36,529 nucleotides of DNA from Gemmatimonadota bacterium. Its GTDB lineage: Bacteria; 4572-55; J002. Of this stretch, positions 869 to 15,100 are shown in pieces. Positions within the stretch are counted from its first letter, which is position 1. Each line of letters opens with the position of its first letter. The stretch lies in the NCBI GenBank assembly GCA_003697105.1, contig RFFQ01000096.1, positions 1 to 36,529 on the forward strand. The letters run 5' to 3'. The notes below the pieces were generated by a model. It searched no databases. It saw only the letters and a program-made list of their open reading frames with translations, and was not told the origin of the DNA. Made by a program: the position numbers and the translations under genes.

Positions 869-1828
869 ATGAATATTCTGTTTATGGGAACACCTGAATT
901 TGCTCTGGAAAGCTTAAAAGCTTTGGTCGAACACGGATGGAATGTGGTGGGTGTGGTCACCCAACCGGATCGTCCGGCGGGAAGGGGGCGTCAAGTGCGA
1001 TATTCACCGGTTAAAACGTATGCTCTGGCACAGCAGTTACCGGTTTACCAACCTCGGCGCGCCTCTCGAAAAGAGTTTGTTGAACAGGTGAAAGCAATGA
1101 ACGTGGATTTGATTGTGGTCGTGGCATATGGTCAACTGCTAAAAAAGCGATTTATCGATATACCTCCCAAAGGCGTGATCAATGTACATGCCTCGCTTTT
1201 ACCGGCGTACCGTGGAGCCGCCCCCATTCAGTGGGCTATTGTTTGTGGTGAGTCCGTAACCGGTATCACCACATTTTATATCGATGAAGGTATGGATTCG
1301 GGCGACATCATCTTAAAACGGGAACTGCCCATTCTACCGGATGAAACTGCCGGTGAACTTCACGACCGGCTGGCGATCCTAGGCGCGGAAGTACTATTAG
1401 ATACGGTTCGCCAGATTGCCGATGGTACCGCCCCCCGTATTCCGCAAGATCACAACCAAGCCACCTATTGCCGTCAATTGACCAAAGCGGATGGGCACAT
1501 CGATTGGACAAAAACGGCGGTTGAGGTTTACAACCATGTTCGAGGGATGACACCTTGGCCCAGCGCATTTACAACGCTTACAACTGCTAAAACACAGAAT
1601 CCACCGGTGCTTAAAATCTGCAAAGGGCATGTGTACGACCTACAAACCCAACCCAACACGACTCCCCCCGGTACGGTGGTAGCCGCCCATCCCAAAATTG
1701 GGATTCGGGTTCAAACCGGCCAAGGCATTTATGTTTTAGATGAGGTTCAACCGCCAAATAAACGTCGCATGACCGTTGCGGAGTATCTTGCTGGAAATAA
1801 AGTTACTGAAGGGGATCAATTCAGCTAA
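869..1828 (+). CDS. fmt: methionyl-tRNA formyltransferase
   Basis: FMGTPEFA, VVTQPDRPAGRG, INVHASLLPAYRGAAPIQWAI, MDSGDI. Confidence 0.97.
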   Translation: MNILFMGTPEFALESLKALVEHGWNVVGVVTQPDRPAGRGRQVRYSPVKTYALAQQLPVYQPRRASRKEFVEQVKAMNVDLIVVVAYGQLLKKRFIDIPPKGVINVHASLLPAYRGAAPIQWAIVCGESVTGITTFYIDEGMDSGDIILKRELPILPDETAGELHDRLAILGAEVLLDTVRQIADGTAPRIPQDHNQATYCRQLTKADGHIDWTKTAVEVYNHVRGMTPWPSAFTTLTTAKTQNPPVLKICKGHVYDLQTQPNTTPPGTVVAAHPKIGIRVQTGQGIYVLDEVQPPNKRRMTVAEYLAGNKVTEGDQFS

Positions 1829-1843
1829 TTTATTAAGGTCGAT

Positions 1844-4279
1844 ATGGAACGTTTCCCCGTATTACGCACCGTACTTTGGCTGATGTTGGGTATTCTTCTT
1901 GCCAATTATATGACCCTGCCGGTCGGCGTATGGATTACGTTGGCGACCTTTTTTTCCCTCCTAAGTCTTCTCACTCATTGGTTTTCGACCCGGTTTACCT
2001 CCCCTCTGGTTTCATCACTGGCAAACGTATTTCTGGGTTTATGTCTGATTGTTGCGGGTGGGTTAAGCTATATTGCCCGGGTTGATGTTCTGCCGCCAAA
2101 TCACATCCAGTATTTTCTCAACTTACCGCGACCAGTCTTTCTCACCGGAAAAATTGTTTCCGAAGTTCACCAAACGCCATATCGATCTGCCTTTGTGATG
2201 CACGTTGAGGTGATCGATACGGGAGGGTTACACTATCCAGTACAAGGTAACGTTGAGGTTGAGGTGAGCGATTCCGCGGGTGTATGGGCATTTGGCGACC
2301 GGGTGCGGATCAAAGGCCGGTTGCGAGCACCAGAGGAGGCTCGGAATCCATTTGCGTTTGACCGGCGTACGTTTCTGGCGCGGAAAGGTATTCATGGAGT
2401 TGTGCGGGTGTGGCGCAAGGCAGATGTGGACCCGTTGGGGCAAAATGACGGAAATTGGTTTCTGCTCTGGGCTGTGTTTCCGGTGAAGCGCCATATTGAA
2501 AACACCATTGATACGGTATTGAGTGGAAATAGTGCCGGATTACTCAAGGGGATTTTGTTAGGAGACCGCCAATCCTTGCCTTCACGAGTACAAGCTCTAT
2601 TTGCGGACGTGGGTGTCGTCCATGTTCTGGCGGTCTCTGGGTTGCACGTGGGCTTGATCGCTTTTATCATGTTGCTCCTTTTTCAATCCACCTGCCGGAT
2701 GGTACCCGGTTTACCCTTTGGATTACCGTATGTATTGACGTCACTTGTGCTTATCTATTATGTGATTTTGGTGGGTGCGCCTCCGTCTGCCATGCGGGCG
2801 TCAATTATGGTCTTTGCCTTTTTCGGTGGTATATGGTTGGAGCGTAAACTGATTTCGCTTAATACGCTTGCTATTGCCGCCTTATTCATTCTCGTTTTAT
2901 CGCCTCAAATGCTGTTTACCGTCGGTTTCCAGTTATCGTTTACCGCAACATTTGCCATTTTGTACTTACACCAACCCCTAAAACAGGGTTTTCCTTCAAG
3001 TTGGTTTCGCTTCTCATTTTTACGGTATATCATCGAACTTCTGATTGTATCCTGTGCGGCAGTATTGGGTACCATTCCCGTGTTAGCCTATACATTCAAT
3101 CAAATTTCACTGATTTCAGTGATTGCGAATCTTTTTGTTATCCCCCAGATGATGTTTGTGGTCGCGCTTGGTTTAACAAGCGTTGTTCTCGGGGCAATTC
3201 ACCCGGCATTGGCGTTGCCTTTTTTGGCGGTTGACTCGATTTTATTACAGTTTACTCTCTGGGTGGTGGAATGCTTTTCTGCCTTTCCGTATGCCGCTAT
3301 TAAAGTGCCCACACCATCATTGATTTTTACCGGTTTTTATTATGGATTACTGCTGACCGTGTTCCATGTGCGCCAATCGATCTTGGCACGGAAGGCGTTG
3401 GTTTGGGTCCTGTTGATCAGTGCTTCTGCTGGGGTCTGGTCACAGGTGCTTTCCCCAGACCTGCCGGGAGAGCGGTTGCAAGTGACATTTTTAGATGTTG
3501 GGCAAGGGGATTGTTCGGTGATCGAATTTCCAAACGGAAAAACGATGCTGATTGACGGCGGTGACCCCGGTAATGGCTATCGGGTGATTTTACCCTATCT
3601 TTGGAAACGAGGGATTCATCATGTGGATTATGTGGTTAATACCCATCCCCACCGCGACCATCTCGGTGGAATTATGGATATTTTACCGCATATTTCCATA
3701 GGCGAAGCGCTAGATAGTGGGCAGCCATACCTATCATATACCTATCTAACGTATTTGGGGCGGTTGAAAGCGCACAAAATTCCTCGAAAATCGCTGAAAA
3801 TTGGAGATACTTTAAAAATTGATCCAAATTGTGAAATAAAATGCTTGCATCCTGATGAGAAATTTATTACCAATACGTCCCGTTTTTCGGAAGAAGAAGG
3901 GTTTAATCTGAATAATGTGTCGGTTATTTTGAAGATTGAGTATGGTTCGGTTAGCTTTCTGTTTACCGGAGATGCCGAACAAGAAGTGGATGAATGGCTC
4001 ATCCAACGGTTTTTACCGGATGATCTGCGATCCACGGTGATTAAAGTGCCTCATCATGGGAGCCGAACATCGAGCACGGTTTCTCTTTTACGTTGGGTAC
4101 GCCCGCGAGTTGCCGTGATTCAATGTGGCGTTGGAAATAAATTTGGTCATCCAGACCCGGTGATACTCCAGCGATACCGGCAATTAGGCACTCGCCTTTA
4201 TCGAACAGATGTGGATGGGGCCATACGCATCCAAACCGATGGACACCAACTTTTGATAGAACCAACGCTTTCAAAATGA
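1844..4279 (+). CDS. comEC: DNA internalization competence protein ComEC/Rec2 (OB-fold, Competence membrane domain, metallo-beta-lactamase domain)
   Basis: HVLAVSGLHVG, GFQLSF, FLDVGQGD, THPHRDHLGG, LFTGD, KVPHHGS, NKFGHP, YRTDVDGAI. Confidence 0.95.
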   Translation: MERFPVLRTVLWLMLGILLANYMTLPVGVWITLATFFSLLSLLTHWFSTRFTSPLVSSLANVFLGLCLIVAGGLSYIARVDVLPPNHIQYFLNLPRPVFLTGKIVSEVHQTPYRSAFVMHVEVIDTGGLHYPVQGNVEVEVSDSAGVWAFGDRVRIKGRLRAPEEARNPFAFDRRTFLARKGIHGVVRVWRKADVDPLGQNDGNWFLLWAVFPVKRHIENTIDTVLSGNSAGLLKGILLGDRQSLPSRVQALFADVGVVHVLAVSGLHVGLIAFIMLLLFQSTCRMVPGLPFGLPYVLTSLVLIYYVILVGAPPSAMRASIMVFAFFGGIWLERKLISLNTLAIAALFILVLSPQMLFTVGFQLSFTATFAILYLHQPLKQGFPSSWFRFSFLRYIIELLIVSCAAVLGTIPVLAYTFNQISLISVIANLFVIPQMMFVVALGLTSVVLGAIHPALALPFLAVDSILLQFTLWVVECFSAFPYAAIKVPTPSLIFTGFYYGLLLTVFHVRQSILARKALVWVLLISASAGVWSQVLSPDLPGERLQVTFLDVGQGDCSVIEFPNGKTMLIDGGDPGNGYRVILPYLWKRGIHHVDYVVNTHPHRDHLGGIMDILPHISIGEALDSGQPYLSYTYLTYLGRLKAHKIPRKSLKIGDTLKIDPNCEIKCLHPDEKFITNTSRFSEEEGFNLNNVSVILKIEYGSVSFLFTGDAEQEVDEWLIQRFLPDDLRSTVIKVPHHGSRTSSTVSLLRWVRPRVAVIQCGVGNKFGHPDPVILQRYRQLGTRLYRTDVDGAIRIQTDGHQLLIEPTLSK

Positions 4280-4413: not shown

Positions 4414-4490
4414 GCCCACGTAGCTCAGTCGGTTAGAGTGCATCCTTGGTAAGGATGAGGTCACCAGTTCAACTCTGGTCGTGGGCTCCA
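4414..4490 (+). tRNA. thrT: tRNA-Thr(GGT)
   Basis: Acceptor stem GCCCACG/CGTGGGC, D arm GCTC..GAGT, anticodon arm CATCC-TTGGTAA-GGATG, T loop TTCAACT, encoded 3' CCA. Confidence 0.97.
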
Positions 4491-6734: not shown

Positions 6735-7277
6735 ATGAAACGAAGTGATAAAACGATTGTAGTAAATCAAGTGGCGGCGAAGCTTCAAAATGCACAAGCC
6801 ATCTATCTGGCGGATTTTACCGGTCTGAATGTCGCTTCTATCTCGGATTTGCGCAATAAATTTCGGGAAGAAGCGGCGAAACACGGAATTGAACTTGAGT
6901 TCCAAGTTATCAAAAATACGTTGATTCGGATCGCGGCTGCCGAAGCAGGTATTGAAGGTTTAGAACCTTACTTAGAAGGCCCTACAGCCGTTGCATTTAG
7001 TTCCGATATTGCCGTGCCGGCAAAAGTGCTGACAGACTTTTCAAAAGAGCATGACGGATTACCTCAGGTAAAAGCCGGTGTGGTGGAAGGTGACCTTTTT
7101 ACAGCAGACCAAGTTAAACAATTAGCGACGTTGCCACCTCGAGAAGTGCTGCTGTCTCAATTACTGGGTTCGTTGCAATCTCCCATTCAAGGATTGGCAA
7201 GTGTCTTACAACAGACGGTCAGCAAATTTGTCCGCGTTGTGGATGCTATTGCGAAGGAAAAAGAAACTCAATCCTGA
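6735..7277 (+). CDS. rplJ: 50S ribosomal protein uL10
   Basis: DFTGL, VIKNTL, LEGPTA, LATLP. The long C-terminal helix would fit three L12-dimer binding segments. Confidence 0.96.
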   Translation: MKRSDKTIVVNQVAAKLQNAQAIYLADFTGLNVASISDLRNKFREEAAKHGIELEFQVIKNTLIRIAAAEAGIEGLEPYLEGPTAVAFSSDIAVPAKVLTDFSKEHDGLPQVKAGVVEGDLFTADQVKQLATLPPREVLLSQLLGSLQSPIQGLASVLQQTVSKFVRVVDAIAKEKETQS

Positions 7278-7345
7278 TAAACAATATATCTTCATCTAAT
7301 TCATCCTCATTTCACTTACTGTTAAACGGAGGTTTGTTGTAAAAA

Positions 7346-7729
7346 ATGTCCGATAAAATCCAACAAATCGTAGAACTTGTTGAGAGTATGACTGTACTTG
7401 AACTCGTTGAGCTTGTTAAAACTCTGGAAGACAAGTTTGGTGTTACTGCCGCCGCACCCGTCGCCGTGGCTGCAGGTCCAATTGCCGGCGGTGCCGCCGC
7501 GGAAGAAGCTGAAGAACAAACGGAATTTGATGTGATTCTACAAAGCTTTGGCGATAAGAAAATCCAAGTGATTAAAGCGGTTCGCGAGGTTACTGACTTG
7601 GGCTTGAAAGAAGCAAAGGAACTCGTGGACAACTTACCTAAGCCCCTCAAGGAAAAGATCAGCAAAGAAGACGCTGAAAAAATCAAAGAAAAAATTGAAG
7701 CCGCCGGTGGGCAGGTTGATATAAAATAA
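7346..7729 (+). CDS. rplL: 50S ribosomal protein bL12
   Basis: [31 protein letters not shown]. Confidence 0.98.
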
Positions 7730-7748
7730 TTTTTGTGGCTTAGATATT

Positions 7749-7810
7749 GGGATATTGGGACTTCCGCCATAAACCGGCAGGATGTTCCCATTATCCCTTT
7801 CTTAGTTTTT
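7749..7810 (+). terminator. putative attenuator/terminator hairpin between rplL and rpoB
   Basis: GGGATA-TTGGGA...TTCCCA-TTATCCC stem (7749-7797) followed by TTTCTTAGTTTTT. Confidence 0.5.
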
Positions 7811-7945
7811 GGGTTTAATATTTTTAGCTTCTTCTTACTCCAATTTTAAAGTTGATTATGTGCTCTTATTCCCAGAGTGGCTCAACTTTAGTATTTATCC
7901 TGTTATGGATACCAACAACCTCATGATTAAGGAAGGTGAAGCTCA

Positions 7946-10900
7946 ATGAGTGTCGTACGTAAGCGTCCTCGGCGAGATTTTTCTCGTTTAAAGTCGGCGA
8001 TTGATATGCCAAACCTACTGGCGATCCAGATGGAGTCCTTTGAGCATTTTTTGCAAGGGCAAACCCATCCGGATGAGCGCCGAGATGAGGGGTTACAAGG
8101 TGTGTTTACGAGCATTTTCCCGATTAGTGACCCCAATGAAAATTTTACCTTGGAGTTTGTTCGATATACCTTGGGCGAACCGAAGTATACCGTTCAAGAG
8201 TGCCAAGAACGCGATGTAACTTATGCCGTTCCACTGAAAGTAACGCTCCGGTTGGTCATCCGCGAAACTGACAAATCTGAAAAACGCGTCAAGGATGTAA
8301 TCGAGCAAAATGTGTATCTGGGGGAGTTACCCATTATCACGGATAAGGGTACTTTTATCATTAATGGTGCTGAGAGGGTAATTGTCAGCCAATTGCACCG
8401 GTCGCCCGGGGTCTTCTTTGATGAAGAAATGCACCCGAAAGGCAAACGACTCTTTTCCTCACGGATTATCCCTTATCGCGGATCGTGGGTTCAGTTTAGT
8501 ATGGACATCAATGATGTCATGTATGTCCATATCGATAAACGGCGCAAAATTCCGGTAACCGTACTGCTGCGGGCACTGGGATATGCCACCGATGAGGTTT
8601 TACTGGATATTTTATGTTCAGAAACCATTCCGCTACATCAAATCTCCAAAACCGGAACGGTGCGGATTGAAGGGCGACGAACCGAAAAACTATTTGGGCG
8701 GATTATTACCGAAAATATTATAAATCCGGAAACCGATGAGGTTATTGCAGAAAAAGGAACACTGTTTGACGCCGATCACCTGGAAAAGATACGTGAAGCA
8801 AACGTTAAAGCGATTAAACTTCGGCTTTCAGACCAATCCCCGGCAATTGGCATGGTGGAAAATACGCTGAAAAAGGAGGGGGATGATTTTAAGTCCGAAG
8901 AAAAAGCATTGGAACGCATCTATAACTTATTGCGCCCCGGTGACCTCCCAAATATTGAAACCGCACGTCAACTGTTGGAACGCCTCTTTTTTAATCCCAA
9001 ACGTTACGACTTGGCAAAGGTTGGACGATATAAATTGAATCGCCGGCTCGGCTTGGATAATGTCGAATCGGCACATAATATCAAGAAAAAAGGCAAAGTC
9101 TCTGAAACATTGAGTGTTGAAGGGGAAATTCGGAATATCGAAGGTAATCCAGTCCAGAATGCGCAGGTTTCGATCACCTTTACCCGGCGGGATGCGAGCG
9201 GTACCGCCCAGTTTGGCCCCATTACAACCTATACGAATGCGGAAGGATACTATGAGTTTGAGACCCTACCCCAAGGAGATTATGCGATTACGGTCTCTTG
9301 CGAAGGTTACATTAATACCTCACTAACTGTTGAAAACGTAGAACAACCCTTGGAGATTAATTTCCGCCTCGACCAAACGATTCTGAGCCGGCGCGACTTT
9401 GTTGAAATTGTAAAGTATATGCTCCTGCTTCGTTCGGGTAAAGGTTTTGTTGATGATATTGACCATTTGGGTAACCGTCGAATCCGCAGCGTCGGTGAAC
9501 TTTTGGCAAACCAGTTTTCCATCGGTTTATCCCGAATGGCGCGGATCATCCGGGAAGGAATGACGCTCCATGATGCGGATAATATCACACCGTATGACCT
9601 GATTAATGTACGCACCGTGACCTCAGTTATTCAAAGTTTTTTTGGGTCGAGTCAATTATCACAATTCATGGATCAAACCAATCCCTTAGCTGAATTGACA
9701 CACAAACGGCGGTTGTCTGCGCTCGGACCCGGTGGTTTAACGCGAGAGCGCGCGAGCTTTGATGTTCGAGATGTGCATTATACCCATTATGGCCGGATGT
9801 GTCCGATTGAAACTCCAGAAGGACAAAACATTGGTCTGATTACTTCGATGAGTACCTATGCCCGCATCAATGAACATGGGTTTCTGGAAACGCCGTATCG
9901 TAAAGTGGTTGATGGACAGGTTTTGTCGGAAATCGAATACCTTTCGGCAGATAAAGAAGATTATTATGTGATTGCTGGGGCAAACACCAAAGTTGATGAG
10001 AACGGGATGTTTGTTGAGAGTGAAGTTATTGCACGGCATCGAGGGGATTTCAATTTTTATTCGCCCGATGAAATCCATTATATGGATGTCTCACCGAAAC
10101 AACTTGTGAGTGCGGCGGCGGCGCTGATCCCATTTTTAGAGCACGATGATGCAAACCGGGCGCTGATGGGGTCAAACATGCAACGCCAAGCGGTACCGTT
10201 GATGACCCCCCAATCTCCGGTGGTGGGTACTGGTATGGAGCAAAAAGTTGCGATTGATTCCAAAGCGGCGGTTGCCAGCGATGTGGATGGTGTCGTGGAA
10301 TACGTCAGCTCGGATACGATTCATATTCGCCCCGATGAACAGGAAGCACCCCGGAAAGTTCGATGGTTGGATATGGAACCCTCTTTGAAAACCTACCGCT
10401 TGACAAAATTCCGCCGTTCCAATCAGGATACGTGTATCAATCAACGCCCTATTGTGAAAGTTGGGCAACGCGTGAAAAAAGGACAACCCCTCGCAGATGG
10501 TCCCGCAACACAGTTCGGGGAATTAGCTTTGGGATCCAATGCGTTGGTGGCTTTTATGCCGTGGCGCGGTTACAATTTTGAAGATGCGATTGTGGTCAGC
10601 GAACGGGTTGTTTCCGGTGATAAGTTTACCTCAATCCATATCGAAGAATTTGATCTGGAAGTGCGCGATACGAAACGGGGTATGGAAGAAATTACGCGTG
10701 AAATCCCCAATGTTTCCGATGATGCACTCCGCAATTTGGATGAAGACGGTATTATTCGAGTGGGGGCCCATGTAAAAGCGGGTGACATCTTGGTCGGAAA
10801 AATCACGCCTAAAGGTGAAACGGAATTAACCCCGGAAGAGAATCTGTTGCGTGCTATCTTTGGTGAACGTGCGGGTGATGTTCGGGATGCCTCGCTAAAA

Positions 10901-12094
10901 GCACCTCCCGGCATGGATGGCATCGTCATTGATGTCAAAGTTTTTAGCCGCCGGGAACGGCATGATCGAGCCATCCGAACCGAAAAGAAAAAGATTGAAG
11001 AGATCAAAAGCATTTACCGCCACAAGTTAGGGGCGGTACTGGAACAACGCGATAATTTGCTTCACCAAATGAGTTCACTCTACCCGCTGGCAAATTCGTC
11101 CACATGGCAGAAAATCGAAAATGCGATTAGCGAAAAAGGGCAAAAACTCACCCAGAAATTGATCGATGGGCTTGAGTTTGAACGCTTGCGGGAACAAATT
11201 CAATTAGGTGGGGTTTTTGACCTTGATTTGGAAACCCGCCGCGAATTGAACGAACTGCTGATGAATGTGAATAGGGCTATCAGCGAAATTCAAAGCCAGT
11301 ATGAAAAAGAGGTTGATAAGATTACCCGCGGGGATGAGTTAGCGCCGGGTGTCTTGAAATTAGTTAAAGTGTACATTGCCCGCAAGCAAAAGCTCTCTGT
11401 CGGGGATAAAATGGCCGGGCGTCACGGTAACAAAGGTGTGGTTTCCAAAATTGTACCGGTTGAAGATATGCCTTATCTCGAAGATGGTCGTCCGGTGGAC
11501 GTGTTGTTGAATCCGCTAGGTGTGCCGTCCCGGATGAATGTGGGGCAAATTTTAGAAACTCACCTCGGCTGGGCAGGTGAACGCCTCGGGGTGAATTTCG
11601 CAACGAATGTATTTGATGGGGCTTCTATTGATCAGATTCAAGATTTGCTGGAAGAAGCCGGTCTGCCTCGAGATGGAAAAATGAGGCTCTTTGATGGTCG
11701 CACCGGAGAACCCTTCGACCTGAAAGTGACGGTCGGGGTGATGTACATGATGAAACTGGATCACTTAGTGGATGATAAAATCCATGCCCGATCTATTGGA
11801 CCGTACTCGCTGGTGACCCAACAGCCGTTGGGAGGTAAAGCACAGTTCGGTGGGCAACGGTTTGGCGAAATGGAGGTCTGGGCATTGGAGGCATACGGGG
11901 CCGCATATACCCTGCAAGAACTACTGACGGTCAAGAGTGATGATGTGTATGGGCGTTCCCGAATTTATGAAGCCATTGTCAAAGGTGATAATCCCCCAGA
12001 ACCGGGTATCCCAGAATCATTTAATGTGCTGGTGAAAGAGCTTCAAAGTCTTGCTCTCGATGTCGAATTGATCACGGACGACGAAGAAGAATAA
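7946..12094 (+). CDS. rpoB: DNA-directed RNA polymerase subunit beta, with an unusual ~100-aa insertion near residues 372-476
   Basis: [43 protein letters not shown]. Confidence 0.99.
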
Positions 12095-12099
12095 TTAAC

Positions 12100-12166
12100 G
12101 ATTTCGGATTTGGGTAACCGGATTACCGGCATTTGGCTGCTGATCCCAAATCCGCCATCCGAAATC
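12100..12166. repeat. heptamer-based inverted repeat in the rpoB-rpoC spacer
   Basis: GATTTCGGAT/ATCCGAAATC and CGGATTTGGG/CCCAAATCCG are both 10-bp perfect complements. Confidence 0.6.
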
Positions 12167-12181
12167 AGCAAGGAGGTTTTC

Positions 12182-15100
12182 GTGCAAGGACGAAATCAAA
12201 ATCTTTCCGAATTTTCAGCGATACGGCTACGGTTGGCGTCTCCCGATGTTATCCGTGAGCAATCCTTTGGTGAAGTGACCAAACCGGAAACTATTAATTA
12301 CCGGTCTTTCAAGCCGGAACGGGATGGGCTGTTTTGTGAACGCATTTTCGGCCCAGTGAAAGATTGGGAATGTAGCTGTGGGAAATATAAACGGATGCGC
12401 TATCGGGGCGTTATCTGTGACCGCTGCGGTGTGGAAGTAACGCTTTCCAAAGTGCGCCGGGAACGCTTGGGACATATCGATTTAGCCGTTCCAGTGGCTC
12501 ATATCTGGTATGTCAAGGGATTACCGAGTCGCGTGGGGAACCTGCTGGATATGTCCGTGCGGGATTTGGAGCGCGTTCTATATTATGAATCCTATTATGT
12601 GATTGACCCCGGTGAGATCGAGGGGATTGCTGCCGGCGAACTGTTGAGCGAAGATGAGTACTACGAACTTTCCCAACAATATGATTATCGGTTGGAAGAA
12701 TACGGGTTTGTCGCCGAAATGGGTGCCCCGGCGTTGAAAAAAATGTTACAAGCCATCAATTTGGAAGAATTGGCGACAGACCTTCAGGCGCGCTTGGGAG
12801 TGGAATCCTCAGAACAACAAAAGAAAAAAATACTGAAACGGCTTAAGATTGTAAAGTCCTTCTTGGATTCTGGTAACACCCCAGAAGAACGAAACAAGCC
12901 GGAATGGATGATCTTAGAAATGATTCCGGTGATTCCCCCTGATTTGCGCCCGTTGGTCGCATTGGAAGGTGGGCGGTTTGCCACCTCGGACTTAAATGAC
13001 TTGTATCGCCGGGTGATAAACCGGAATAACCGCTTGAAAAAATTGATTGAAATCCAAGCGCCCGAAGTCATCTTGCGCAATGAAAAACGGATGCTACAAG
13101 AAGCTGTGGATGCGCTCTTTGATAATGGACGCCGGTCGCGGGCGGTTCGTGGACATGGGAATCGTCCCCTGAAATCCCTCTCAGAAATGTTAAAAGGAAA
13201 GCAAGGGCGTTTCCGTCAAAACTTGCTTGGAAAACGGGTGGACTACTCCGGCCGTTCTGTAATCGTAGTGGGTCCCGAACTCGAAATGCACCAATGCGGG
13301 TTACCCAAAGCGATGGCGCTAGAATTGTTTAAGCCCTTTATTATCCGTCAGTTGGAAAGTAAAGGACACGTCCAAACGGTGAAAAGTGCGAAACGGTTGG
13401 TCGAACGAGAAACCACAGAAGTATGGGATATTTTAGAGGAGATTATTGCCGATCACCCCGTGTTTCTGAATCGTGCTCCTACATTGCACCGTTTGGGGAT
13501 TCAAGCATTTGAACCTGTTTTAGTGGAAGGAAAAGCGATTCGATTGCACCCTTTGGTTTGTGCGGCGTTCAATGCGGACTTTGACGGGGATCAGATGGCG
13601 GTTCATGTGCCGTTAGGATTTGAAGCCCAATTGGAAGCGCGGGTGCTAATGCTTTCCACTTTTAACATTTTATCCCCAGCAAACGGCCGTCCATTGGCAA
13701 CGCCCAGCCAAGATATTGTTATTGGACCTCACTATATGACCAAAATTCGGAAAGGTGGGAAAGGCGAAGGGCGTATTTTTGCCTCCACAGATGAAGCGGT
13801 GATGGCTCATGCCCAAAATCTAGTCGAATTACATTCGCGGATTAAAATCAAGGGTATTAACGTGATCAAGGAAGACCCCTCGTGGACGGAAAATGAGATG
13901 CGTGACCCCAATGCGTGGCAAGATTATACAACCGTCGGGCGCGTTCTCTTTAATCAGATTATCCCAGAGGGTATTTCTTTTCAAAATAAGGAATTGAAAA
14001 AGAAGGAATTAGCTGCGTTGGTTGGGGATGTTTACCGGCAATATGGGCCCATTCGCACCGCACAATTTCTTGACCGGCTCAAGGAAATCGGTTTTGAGTA
14101 TGCCACCCGTTGTGGTTTAACCGTCGGGGTGGAAGATATGATTATTCCGGAAACAAAACAGGCTCTCATTGATAAAGCTCGCACCGAAATCGAGGAAATT
14201 CAGCGCCAATATGATCGGGGTGTGATTACCGATGGGGAACGTTATAATAAAGTGATTGATACGTGGACCCATACCACTTCCGACGTCGCCAAGGAAATGT
14301 TTCGGGAGATGGAACTCAGCTACGATGGGTTTAATCCGATCTACATGATGGCGGACTCCGGTGCGCGGGGTAGTCGCGAACAGGTACGCCAGTTAGCGGG
14401 TATGCGAGGCCTGATGGCAAAACCGCAAAAGAAAATTACGGGCTCCGTTGGGGAAATCATCGAAACACCGATCCTTTCAAGTTTCCGTGAAGGGTTAACC
14501 GTGTTGGAATACTTTATCTCCACACATGGTGCGCGAAAAGGGTTGGCAGATACCGCCCTGAAAACCGCAGATGCGGGGTATTTAACGCGTCGTTTGGTAG
14601 ATGTGGCTCAGGATGCCATTATCACCGAAGAAGATTGCGGCACGGTGCGCGGGATTGACCGGATGGCGTTAAAAGAAGGGGAAGAAGTGATTGTCCCCCT
14701 TAAAGACCGAATTTTAGGCCGGGTTGCCTTGGATGATGTTGTTGACCCCATTACGGATGAAATTATTGTCAACGCCGGTACCGAAATTGACGAAACCGCG
14801 GCAAATATGATTGAAGATGCCAATATCGAACGGGTCCGTATTCGTTCCGTGCTGACCTGTGAAACCCGGCGAGGTATCTGTGTGAAATGCTATGGTCGCA
14901 ATTTAGCCACCGGTCGCATGGTTGAAGTTGGTGAGGCTGTTGGGATTATCGCGGCACAAAGTATTGGTGAACCGGGTACCCAATTGACCTTGCGGACGTT
15001 CCACATCGGGGGTACGGCGGCACGGATTGCGGCGCAATCGCAAAAAACGGTTAAAAGTGCCGGGAAAATCACTTATGAACAGCTTGATACCGTGACCAAT

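What the first reader, a model, noticed from the sequence alone, without database searches (positions are those of the whole stretch)
9059..9373. RNA polymerase beta subunit carries an inserted carboxypeptidase-regulatory-like (Ig/transthyretin-type) beta-sandwich domain
Seen: about 105 in-frame residues lie between the conserved [11 protein letters not shown] and [13 protein letters not shown] segments of RpoB. They comprise a basic linker (NIKKKGK) followed by [23 protein letters not shown]...[29 protein letters not shown]...INFRL (about residues 389-475, nt 9110-9370). Established: E. coli has only ~10 residues here (GRMKFNRSL..GILSKDD). The pattern G.V.D..G.PV..A.V....T.T...G.Y....LP.G.Y...VS..GY....FxL is the signature of CarboxypepD_reg-type domains, usually found in TonB-dependent receptor N-termini and surface proteins. 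The known lineage-specific RpoB inserts I recall at this beta-lobe site (e.g. in Firmicutes) are BBM2-type modules. Inference: an envelope-type adaptor fold has been grafted onto the beta lobe near downstream DNA. It could be a docking site for a lineage-specific transcription factor, a membrane/ribosome tether, or a DNA contact via the basic linker. I know of no description of this insert.
Basis: partly seen in the sequence, partly recalled or inferred. Interest (0 to 1): 0.9.

Follow-up and report, generated by a model that had tools for sequence, protein, structure and literature searches.

The report
Envelope-type beta-sandwich inserted in RpoB
The RNA polymerase beta subunit of this hot-spring bacterium carries an extra folded domain of a kind normally found in outer-membrane and secreted proteins, at a loop where other bacteria carry a different insert; a second uncultured lineage shares it, and what it does is not known.

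Summary
rpoB (7946-12094, +, 1382 aa) has 101 extra in-frame residues (A376-D476, nt 9071-9373) between two conserved beta-lobe segments. They are a 14-residue linker plus a CarboxypepD_reg domain: PF13620 scores 45.4 bits against a cut-off of 32.3. AlphaFold2 gives a seven-strand sandwich (pLDDT 88.2), and the best Foldseek matches are the transthyretin-like domains of carboxypeptidases D and N.

It is not an assembly artefact. Contigs of two runs span it without a difference, and a separate assembly encodes the same insert.

It is not unique. A second RpoB cluster (P0165/P0337, 65% identical overall) has a colinear homologous insert at the same site. On an RpoB tree the insert-bearers form one clade (100/100), sister to the insert-less family that holds the only two other genomes of the phylum, so one gain is enough. 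It was not found in 608 other genomes searched.

The site is the known beta-i5 position. Firmicutes carry two BBM2 modules there, and other lineages carry unrelated pieces, including a ribosomal L1 fragment.

The insert is only 35% conserved between the two lineages, against 71% for the rest. The basic linker is not conserved, which weakens the idea of a DNA contact. The most likely reading is a peripheral lobe appendage. No function has been shown.

The parts
7946..12094 (+). rpoB, RNA polymerase beta subunit, 1382 aa
   Evidence: ORF. TIGR02013 scores 1848.8 bits against a cut-off of 801. Six Rpb2 Pfam domains. Operon context.
9023..9070 (+). Conserved lobe segment before the insert (G360-S375, [16 protein letters not shown])
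   Evidence: Aligns with insert-less RpoBs up to S375. Pfam RNA_pol_Rpb2_2 stops at residue 377, profile position 155 of 190.
9071..9373 (+). The whole insert, A376-D476, 101 residues
   Evidence: Absent from G001 and G002 and from 38 of 39 aligned orthologue segments; one segment has a different 36-aa piece. Present and colinear in P0165 and P0337. GC 0.459 and GC3 0.465, against 0.475 and 0.474 for the rest of the gene.
9071..9112 (+). N-terminal linker, A376-L389 ([14 protein letters not shown]), net charge +3
   Evidence: Lies outside the Pfam domain. pLDDT is 55-74 in the model. The counterpart in P0165 is 12 residues with net charge -1.
9113..9370 (+). CarboxypepD_reg (transthyretin-like) beta-sandwich, S390-L475
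   Evidence: PF13620 scores 45.4 and 51.6 bits. hhalign 96.7% against an independent profile. AlphaFold2 pLDDT 88.2 with seven strands. Best Foldseek matches are carboxypeptidase D/N transthyretin-like domains.
9182..9220 (+). Lengthened stretch between the second and third strands (T413-P425). It is shared in length, not in sequence, with P0165.
   Evidence: Most of the 34 own-genome copies have a gap here. P0165 has an even longer stretch at the same place. Model confidence is lower here, with a block mean of 79.
9374..9418 (+). Conserved lobe segment after the insert (Q477-Y491)
   Evidence: Alignment with insert-less RpoBs and with solved RNAP beta chains resumes here.

Best explanation
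[quoted passage not shown] It consists of one CarboxypepD_reg / transthyretin-like seven-strand beta-sandwich (86 aa) tied in by a 14-residue N-terminal linker, with almost no C-terminal linker. It sits in the surface loop known as the beta-i5 site, where Firmicutes carry two BBM2 modules. On the RpoB tree a single gain is enough: it falls in the common ancestor of this organism and of a second uncultured lineage (P0165/P0337), after the split from the insert-less sister family that contains the two other genomes of the phylum.

INFERRED (origin): The domain was captured from the large pool of such domains in envelope and secreted proteins. This genome alone has 99 copies in 56 ORFs. It landed in a loop that tolerates foreign pieces. 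No close donor survives.

INFERRED (function): It works as a folded, peripheral appendage of the lobe that takes no part in catalysis, like the E. coli beta-i4 and beta-i9 inserts. Selection visibly keeps it foldable but keeps little else. Any function is most likely modulatory: adding bulk or a protein-contact surface to the mobile lobe, and so affecting promoter opening or the access of regulators. A nucleic-acid contact is less likely.

ODDS: about 0.9 that it is a genuine, inherited domain insertion of this fold; about 0.55 that it is a dispensable or merely modulatory appendage rather than a dedicated docking platform.
For: Fold:
- PF13620 is above its cut-off in P0001, P0165 and P0337.
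- An independent profile gives 96.7% and 95.9%.
- AlphaFold2 gives pLDDT 88.2 and seven strands.
- Foldseek finds 112 PDB matches at E<=0.001, led by carboxypeptidase D/N transthyretin-like domains. 5aq0_A and the SusC NTE 9hfj both reach TMt 0.74.

Real sequence:
- Per-run contigs of X1 and X2 (4002 and 7050 nt, depth 22 and 24) cover 8500-9900 with 0 differences. They come from one study and may be the source.
- P0164, from another assembly, is 1381/1382 identical and has the same insert.
- The insert's composition does not differ from the rest of the gene.

Site:
- Chain 6wvj_C has residues 284-376 between the same two flanks. Chains 9n9p_C and 8gzg_C have none.
- The Firmicute insert is named beta-i5, made of two BBM2 modules, with function unknown.
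- The beta-2 lobe is described as a hot-spot for inserts.

Single gain:
- The insert-bearers form a clade at 100/100, sister at 85/86 to an insert-less clade. One change of state is enough.

Rarity:
- 1 of 3 genomes of the phylum, 1 of 401 and 0 of 208.
- Only P0001 and P0165 carry PF13620 among the 120 RpoBs listed in each.

Donor pool:
- 99 domains in 56 ORFs. 9 of 9 ORFs examined are TonB-dependent receptors, secreted peptidases or T9SS cargo.

Peripheral role:
- The insert is 35/99 identical between the lineages, against 71% for the rest. That is as low as the two other variable stretches.
- Charge is not conserved.
- E. coli beta-i4 and beta-i9 deletions give minor defects (passage of PMC2939025).
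- Unrelated pieces occupy the same loop elsewhere.
Against: - Only two lineages and four protein sequences are known. All come from metagenomes, and no DNA could be fetched for P0165 or P0337, so no dN/dS could be computed.
- There are no expression or protein data.
- The insert's position relative to DNA, the beta-prime jaw or sigma could not be modelled: pLDDT is 44-65 for the insert in the lobe model.
- A domain that still passes Pfam's cut-off after a path of 0.58 changes per column on the core, with only three small gaps, has been kept folded. That fits a function as well as mere tolerance.
- No clustering of clade-specific substitutions on the lobe was seen (9 positions), so there is no sign of a co-evolved docking surface either way.
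- The sister relation to the insert-less clade has only moderate support (85/86). A gain plus a loss cannot be excluded.
Confidence: 0.8

Rival explanations
1. The domain is a dedicated docking platform. A lineage-specific transcription factor or RNAP-associated protein binds the beta-sandwich, much as regulators use the E. coli lobe insert Si1.
For: - The fold is kept in both lineages after deep divergence.
- Beta-sandwiches of this family are typical protein- or ligand-binding modules, and the SusC NTE is needed for transporter function although its role is unknown (passages of PMC7782687).
- In E. coli, DksA works through contacts with the lobe insert Si1 (passage of 10.64898/2026.02.09.704077).
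Against: - Identity in the insert is only 35%, with no conserved charge pattern.
- No candidate partner was identified.
- There is no partner insert in RpoC.
- Clade-specific substitutions do not cluster.
- With two lineages, a conserved surface patch cannot be told from the fold's core.
Confidence: 0.25
2. The insert contacts nucleic acid (downstream DNA or nascent RNA) through the lysine-rich linker.
For: The linker [14 protein letters not shown] has net charge +3 and pI 10. The lobe borders the main channel (passages of PMC7749167 and PMC7749165).
Against: - The equivalent linker in P0165 has net charge -1 and keeps none of the lysine run.
- The domain is net -8 here and net -1 there.
- The linker is the least confident part of the model.
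Confidence: 0.04
3. The envelope-type domain tethers RNA polymerase to the membrane, the envelope machinery or the ribosome.
For: Only the usual homes of the fold point this way: TonB-dependent receptors and secreted or T9SS proteins in this genome.
Against: - RpoB is cytoplasmic, whereas the known partners and settings of the fold are periplasmic or extracellular.
- Pfam and NCBIfam hits on the insert are all beta-sandwich families. Hydrophobic or lipid-binding segments were not scanned for.
- Nothing else in the data speaks for it.
Confidence: 0.03
4. The insert is an artefact: a chimeric assembly, a binning error, or a mobile element or intein caught inside rpoB.
For: When first searched, the insert was found in one contig only.
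Against: - Two per-run assemblies span both junctions with 0 differences.
- A third assembly gives the same insert with one substitution elsewhere in the protein.
- A 65%-identical RpoB carries a colinear homologue.
- The frame is intact and the composition is native.
- There are no flanking repeats beyond chance-sized ones.
- No intein or Hint family appears among the Pfam hits at E<=1.
Confidence: 0.01

Closest known systems
Firmicute beta-i5 (beta-ln5) insert of RpoB (Bacillus subtilis, Clostridioides difficile)
   Same: It is in the same loop of the beta-2 lobe, between the same two conserved segments: chain 6wvj_C has residues 284-376 there. The size is similar, at 99-121 aa. It is lineage-specific, lies on the outside of the lobe, and its function is unknown.
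   Different: That insert is two BBM2/BEAN modules (CATH 3.90.105.10). This one is a single all-beta CarboxypepD_reg sandwich. The profile comparison with the lobe, including its BBM2-like part, gives probability 1.3%. That insert marks a whole phylum; this one is seen in two deep branches of a small uncultured lineage.
E. coli beta-i4 (Si1) and beta-i9 (Si2) inserts
   Same: They are lineage-specific and peripheral, and they lie in (beta-i4) or near the mobile parts of beta. Their deletion is tolerated (passage of PMC2939025). Beta-i4 is used by DksA and TraR to act on lobe mobility. This RpoB has its own BBM2-like stretch at about residues 222-293.
   Different: They are at different sites and have different folds (BBM2 and a helical ladder). 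They are ancient and widespread rather than restricted to one small lineage.
CarboxypepD_reg family (PF13620 / PF13715): transthyretin-like domain of carboxypeptidases D/N/M, and the N-terminal extension of SusC/RagA-type TonB-dependent transporters
   Same: Sequence family and fold agree. The seven-strand sandwich has no enzymatic role of its own.
   Different: The known hosts are extracytoplasmic, and the domain sits at a terminus or in tandem arrays (passages of PMC7782687). Here it is a single copy nested inside a cytoplasmic, essential enzyme, with a lengthened stretch between strands two and three.
Other occupants of the same RpoB loop seen here
   Same: They are at the same insertion point. 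They are a Ribosomal_L1 fragment in a Thermodesulfobacteriota MAG (L114) and unassigned pieces of 129, 71, 68, 62 and 36 aa in other lineages.
   Different: Their sequences are unrelated to this insert and to each other. None is a beta-sandwich by Pfam.

Membership tests
Pfam PF13620 CarboxypepD_reg (clan of transthyretin-like / prealbumin-like sandwiches) | Score above the family's curated cut-off (32.3 bits) over the whole profile | tested here: met
   P0001 scores 45.4 bits (51.6 for the insert alone) over profile positions 1-81 of 82. P0165 scores 34.1 and P0337 34.3 bits over the same positions.
Pfam PF13620 CarboxypepD_reg (clan of transthyretin-like / prealbumin-like sandwiches) | Seven-strand beta-sandwich superposable on solved members | tested here: met
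   The AlphaFold2 model has pLDDT 88.2, pTM 0.76 and seven strands. Foldseek matches include 3mn8_B at 2.6e-6, 2nsm, 1qmu_A, 5aq0_A (TMt 0.74) and 9hfj (TMt 0.74). This is a prediction, not a solved structure.
Pfam PF13620 CarboxypepD_reg (clan of transthyretin-like / prealbumin-like sandwiches) | Homology to bona fide members, judged without the RpoB sequence in the profile | tested here: met
   A profile of 34 own-genome envelope copies (A5) gives 96.7% (E 4e-10) against P0001 and 95.9% (E 6.2e-9) against P0165.
Pfam PF13620 CarboxypepD_reg (clan of transthyretin-like / prealbumin-like sandwiches) | Usual setting: extracytoplasmic protein, terminal or tandem position (typical, not defining) | tested here: not met
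   The host here is cytoplasmic RpoB and the domain is nested in a loop. All 9 other hosts examined in this genome are envelope or secreted proteins.
BBM2 / BEAN insertional domain of RNAP beta (CATH 3.90.105.10) | Sequence-profile or fold similarity to BBM2/BEAN modules | tested here: not met
   hhalign of the insert family against the lobe alignment, which includes the BBM2-like part, gives probability 1.3%. There is no RNAP chain among the 44 PDB sequences hit by the insert profile, nor in the Foldseek rows shown. The model is all-beta. No dedicated BEAN profile was at hand.
Beta-i5 insertion site of bacterial RpoB (nomenclature of Lane and Darst 2010, as used in 10.1101/2022.01.17.476619) | The insert lies in the beta-2 lobe between the same conserved segments as the Firmicute insert | tested here: met
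   phmmer aligns P0001 305-372 to 6wvj_C 218-283, and 481-539 to 377-435. The 6wvj_C row lists 6zca as having the same sequence, and the preprint names 6ZCA as B. subtilis. The original 2010 papers were not held.
RpoB, bacterial RNA polymerase beta subunit (NCBIfam TIGR02013, equivalog) | Score above the cut-off, full length, single copy, canonical operon | tested here: met
   1848.8 bits against a cut-off of 801, covering residues 6-1375. There is one match in the genome. The gene lies in rplKAJL-rpoBC.
Intein / mobile insertion | Hint or homing-endonuclease domains, or terminal repeats | tested here: not met
   No such Pfam family appears at E<=1. Only chance-sized repeats of 9-14 nt lie around the junctions.

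The most novel reading that the evidence does not exclude
An envelope-type Ig-like module has been recruited into the transcription machine as a working part. On this reading it is a receptor on the mobile beta lobe for a regulator found only in this lineage, or for a small ligand. Promoter opening or pausing in this uncultured hot-spring lineage would then be controlled through a surface that no studied RNA polymerase has. It would also show that RNA polymerase kept acquiring new, non-BBM2 domains late in bacterial evolution.
Probability: 0.12. Interest if true: 0.8.

Novelty: new variant of a known kind. Interest (0 to 1): 0.5.

Why it matters
Lineage-specific inserts are the main structural difference between bacterial RNA polymerases. 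Most have no known role.

The 2024 catalogue I read (PMC11515920, sections 2.1, 2.2, 2.6, 3.1) assigns the beta-subunit inserts to one fold, BEAN/BBM2. It concludes that insertion tapered off after early bacterial evolution.

This case does not fit that picture. A different and very common fold, normally extracytoplasmic, was inserted at a known hot-spot and inherited within a small, late-branching uncultured lineage. The same loop holds a ribosomal L1 fragment and other unrelated pieces in other phyla.

Taken together, the beta-i5 loop looks like a permissive site that still captures domains. That offers a natural experiment on how an essential enzyme tolerates or exploits new modules.

For practical work, the insert is a clean signature indel for this lineage. 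It also marks a site where foreign domains can apparently be grafted onto RNA polymerase.

Tried and rejected
Searches that missed or were swamped
- the first protein search, on residues 355-495, found only the window's own RpoB, which wrongly suggested uniqueness. The word index missed P0165, which the wider region 150-560 found.
- the exhaustive representatives search was swamped by giant tandem-repeat proteins. It cannot show RpoBs that are hidden in 50% clusters, and the window's own RpoB was not listed. It is uninformative.

Alignment and models
- the mixed alignment A1 spread the short domain rows over the whole length and was dropped. A2 and A3 were used instead.
- the lobe-plus-insert model has pLDDT 44-65 in the insert, so its orientation and any distance to DNA were not interpreted.
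- Foldseek of that model only returns RNAP beta chains.

Runs
- no RNA holder was listed.
- run X3 has next to none of the stretch.

Sequence features checked, with nothing found
- flanking repeats are only chance-sized.
- promoter and terminator scans over 7200-12300 are at the level of shuffles.
- clade-specific substitutions number 9 and do not cluster.
- RpoC has no partner insert.
- the closest paralogue in the own genome is 33% identical over 75 aa (E 0.002). The best match among 161 fetched proteins is 37.5% over 72 aa. No donor can be named.
- the Atlas look-alikes score 0.78, which makes them leads only.

Not available
- the Lane and Darst 2010 papers were not held, so their catalogue was not checked directly. 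Supplementary tables of PMC11515920 were not seen and may list rarer architectures.
- dN/dS between P0165 and P0337 was not possible, because no DNA could be fetched for them.
Full report
WHAT IS THERE

The interval lies inside the only long ORF of the region, 7946-12094 on the + strand, 1382 aa. It is rpoB. NCBIfam TIGR02013 scores 1848.8 bits against a cut-off of 801, and all six Rpb2 Pfam domains are present. The gene sits in nusG-rplK-rplA-rplJ-rplL-rpoB-rpoC-rpsL-rpsG-fusA-tuf, with rpoA further on.

Pfam finds PF13620 CarboxypepD_reg at residues 390-475, covering positions 1-81 of the 82-position profile. It scores 45.4 bits in the whole protein and 51.6 bits in the insert alone, against a cut-off of 32.3. 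PF13715 is also above its cut-off. The lobe domain RNA_pol_Rpb2_2 is split at profile position 155 of 190.

Alignment with insert-less relatives sets the boundaries at S375 | A376...D476 | Q477. That is 101 residues, nt 9071-9373. A 14-residue linker (376-389) is followed by the domain, which runs straight into the next lobe segment.

IS IT REAL?

Base composition of the insert does not differ from the rest of the gene. GC is 0.459 and GC3 0.465, against 0.475 and 0.474. The standard deviation of 303-nt windows is 0.026 and 0.042.

Two public runs hold the stretch. Their own per-run contigs (4002 and 7050 nt, depth about 22 and 24) cover 8500-9900 with no difference, no gap and no joint. They come from two samples of one study, labelled hot springs metagenome, and may be the source of the window.

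The protein's 90% cluster has a second member from another assembly (P0164, contig 40,263 nt). It is 1381/1382 identical, the one change lies outside the insert, and the insert is identical. The genome has a single rpoB. There are no flanking repeats beyond chance size and no intein-type families. A misassembly or a mobile element is therefore excluded for practical purposes.

FOLD

A profile built only from 34 copies of the domain in envelope proteins of the same genome, with no RpoB row, matches P0001 391-475 at hhalign probability 96.7% (E 4e-10).

A profile including the insert hits 44 PDB sequences at E up to 0.01. Among them are NOMO2, a TonB-linked receptor (9gbc_A 27-102), the C-terminal domains of carboxypeptidases D, N and M, and the N-terminal domains of SusC and RagA. 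No RNA polymerase chain is among them.

AlphaFold2 was run on the 109 residues 372-480 with that 35-row alignment. It gives mean pLDDT 88.2, pTM 0.76 and seven strands. The first 16 residues, the linker, score 55-74.

Foldseek against the PDB gives 112 matches at E<=0.001. The list is led by the transthyretin-like domains of carboxypeptidase D and N (3mn8_B at 2.6e-6, 2nsm, 1qmu_A). The isolated domain 5aq0_A and the SusC NTE 9hfj each reach TMt 0.74.

The insert is not BBM2/BEAN-like: hhalign of the insert family against the 57-row lobe alignment gives probability 1.3%.

DISTRIBUTION AND HISTORY

The phylum holds only three species in the genome collection. The other two (G001 and G002, same class, another family) have RpoBs of 1258 and 1262 residues, and their alignment skips query residues 372-471. 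The 141-residue query (insert plus flanks) matched at E<=1e-10 in 1 of 401 genomes from some 270 families, the window's own. It matched in 0 of 208 genomes of a neighbouring phylum.

My first protein search suggested that the insert was unique. A wider one did not. With residues 150-560 as query, the top hit after self was P0165. This is a 1408-aa RpoB from a 6.1-kb contig that scores 473 bits, against 360 or less for the other 118 listed. It is the only one of those with PF13620 in its precomputed domains. The reverse search gave the same two.

P0165 is 65% identical to P0001 overall and has a colinear insert of 102 residues at the same place. Its cluster mate P0337 (1410 aa, another contig) has it too. 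Both pass the PF13620 cut-off, at 34.1 and 34.3 bits. P0165 414-502 matches the independent envelope profile at 95.9%.

On an RpoB tree from which the insert columns were dropped (24 rows, 1261 columns, IQ-TREE LG+G4), P0001, P0165 and P0337 form a clade with support 100/100. That clade is sister, at 85/86, to a 100/100 clade of insert-less RpoBs containing G001 and G002. One change of state is enough. A 44-row quick tree agrees.

The insert is therefore an inherited character of a lineage with two known deep branches. It was gained after the split from the sister family. The moderate support for that sister relation leaves a gain plus a loss possible.

HOW CONSTRAINED IS IT?

Between P0001 and P0165 the insert is 35/99 identical, against 71% for the rest of the protein. 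It ranks with the two other most variable stretches, around residues 1001-1031 and 211-231. There are only three small gaps.

Both inserts share a lengthened stretch between the second and third strands. Most of the 34 paralogues lack it.

Between the close pair P0165 and P0337, 3 of the 34 differing columns fall in the insert, and all three are conservative.

The linker is net +3 here and net -1 in P0165. The domain is net -8 here and net -1 there. So the fold is kept, but neither surface charge nor the lysine run is.

No clustering of clade-specific substitutions was seen on the lobe (9 positions in all). RpoC has no matching insert.

WHERE IT CAME FROM

A home-made profile finds 99 such domains in 56 ORFs of this genome. 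The 9 ORFs I examined, of those 56, are:
- five TonB-dependent receptors with the domain at the N-terminus;
- S8 and C25 peptidases;
- a sortilin/BNR protein;
- a six-fold tandem protein.
Three of the nine carry a T9SS sorting tail.

The insert scores better with PF13620 than with PF13715, like the secreted-protein copies and unlike three of the five receptor copies. No close donor survives. The best own-genome match is 33% over 75 aa, and the best among 161 fetched proteins is 37.5% over 72 aa. The origin, capture from this pool, is an inference.

THE SITE

phmmer aligns P0001 305-372 to chain 6wvj_C 218-283, and 481-539 to 377-435. Chain residues 284-376 therefore fall between the same two flanks. 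8x6f_C is alike, and 8i23_C and 7l7b_C carry a longer piece. 9n9p_C (372 to 375) and 8gzg_C (271 to 274) have none.

The 6wvj_C row lists 6zca as having the same sequence. The C. difficile preprint names 6ZCA as B. subtilis. It states that the Firmicute lobe insert is beta-i5, consists of two BBM2 modules, is 99 aa in B. subtilis and 121 aa in C. difficile, and has unknown function (passages). The HelD paper calls the beta-2 lobe a hot-spot for lineage-specific insertions and calls beta-ln5 enigmatic (passages).

My own survey of this loop:
- Of 107 RpoB ORFs from other genomes, 98 have five or fewer extra residues and nine have 12-129.
- Of 173 further RpoB proteins, 131 have none, 35 have a 16-residue basic stretch, one has 14, four are four residues shorter at this point, and only P0165 and P0337 have the domain.
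- One of the nine longer inserts, in a Thermodesulfobacteriota MAG, is a Ribosomal_L1 fragment (PF00687, 55.8 bits). The others have no Pfam family above its cut-off.

HOW IT MOST LIKELY WORKS

What is shown: a folded seven-strand sandwich hangs on a loop of the mobile lobe, and it has been inherited and kept foldable.

What is inferred:
- Geometry. In a seven-strand sandwich the two ends lie at opposite poles. That would explain why both lineages keep a 12-14-residue N-terminal linker of free sequence while the C-terminus joins the lobe directly. I could not test this on coordinates.
- Role. The E. coli inserts beta-i4 and beta-i9 are peripheral and can be deleted with minor growth defects (passage of PMC2939025). 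The site accepts unrelated pieces. Conservation here is low. I therefore take a catalytically dispensable appendage as the most likely reading. Any effect it has would come through lobe bulk or mobility, or through a contact surface. The precedent is DksA acting on the E. coli lobe through Si1 (passage).

A dedicated docking platform is the main rival. Nucleic-acid contact, an envelope tether and an artefact are unlikely, for the reasons given under the rivals.

The lobe-plus-insert model has pLDDT above 90 for most of the lobe but 44-65 for the insert. I draw nothing from its orientation.

COMPARISON AND NOVELTY

By position this is a beta-i5-site insert. By fold it belongs to the CarboxypepD_reg family and not to BBM2/BEAN.

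The 2024 catalogue describes the beta inserts as BEAN domains at five sites. It infers that insertion ceased in later bacterial evolution (PMC11515920, sections 2.1, 2.2, 2.6 and 3.1 read).

Four full-text searches found no paper that describes a carboxypeptidase-regulatory-like, transthyretin-like or Ig-like domain in RpoB. The Lane and Darst 2010 papers were not held, and supplements were not seen, so a listing there cannot be excluded.

I rate it a new variant of a known kind: a lineage-specific lobe insert made of a fold not reported in this role.

VERDICT

The finding is of moderate interest as a case of late domain capture by an essential enzyme. Its function is unshown.

Noticed in passing
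L114:2294-2599 (+); same genome G401:C56:11577-11963 (-), with true rplA at G401:C56:14589-15161 (-): The RpoB of a Thermodesulfobacteriota MAG (1517-aa frame) carries a Ribosomal_L1 fragment at the very same loop: PF00687 scores 55.8 bits for the excised piece and 62.2 bits in the genome search. It is 48/126 (38%) identical to the genome's own L1, whose gene lies about 2.6 kb upstream in the same operon. Whether it is real or an assembly artefact was not checked.
   Followed up: partly
L154:2213-2647 (+) and L015:1075-1509 (+): A 129-residue insert at the same RpoB loop in a Geobacter sp. MAG and in genome G036. No Pfam family is above its cut-off.
   Followed up: partly
L119:2219-2479 (+), L133:2216-2476 (+), L115:2387-2638 (+), L025:3685-3918 (-), L132:2060-2215 (+): Further unrelated inserts at the same loop: 71 aa in Hydrogenophilaceae and Accumulibacter MAGs, 68 aa in an Acidobacteriota MAG, 62 aa in G022, and 36 aa in a Chlorobiales MAG. 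Pfam, run on the first four, gave no hit at E<=0.1.
   Followed up: partly
proteins P0199-P0335 (35 of the 173 RpoBs): A 16-residue basic stretch, rich in K and R and ending in P-D-D-like residues, occupies the same loop in one group of uncultured RpoBs of about 1285-1306 aa.
   Followed up: no
P0165, residues about 110-136: The second insert-bearing RpoB has an extra 27-residue charged stretch after the position of P0001 residue 109. P0001 lacks it.
   Followed up: no
window 8609-8824 (P0001 residues 222-293): This part of the lobe weakly matches rpoC models (TIGR02386 at E 4.2e-5, NF002724 at E 2e-5). That is what a BBM2-type (beta-i4-like) module shared between beta and beta-prime would give.
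   Followed up: no
genome G000, e.g. L229 (C45:15308-17572), L230-L237: The genome is rich in CarboxypepD_reg domains: 99 in 56 ORFs by a home-made profile. They include a protein with six tandem copies and several T9SS-tailed peptidases.
   Followed up: partly
window 1844-4279 (+), 869-1828 (+), 4414-4490 (+): Upstream of the ribosomal cluster lie a ComEC-type protein (Competence + DUF4131 + metallo-beta-lactamase), a formyltransferase and a single tRNA-Thr(GGT). No other Rfam family was found in the window.
   Followed up: no
genome collection: The organism's phylum holds only three species genomes (G000-G002). NCBI names the G002-identical RpoB (P0168) 'Candidatus Cloacimonetes bacterium 4572_55'. 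On the RpoB tree the group sits among FCB-type lineages.
   Followed up: partly
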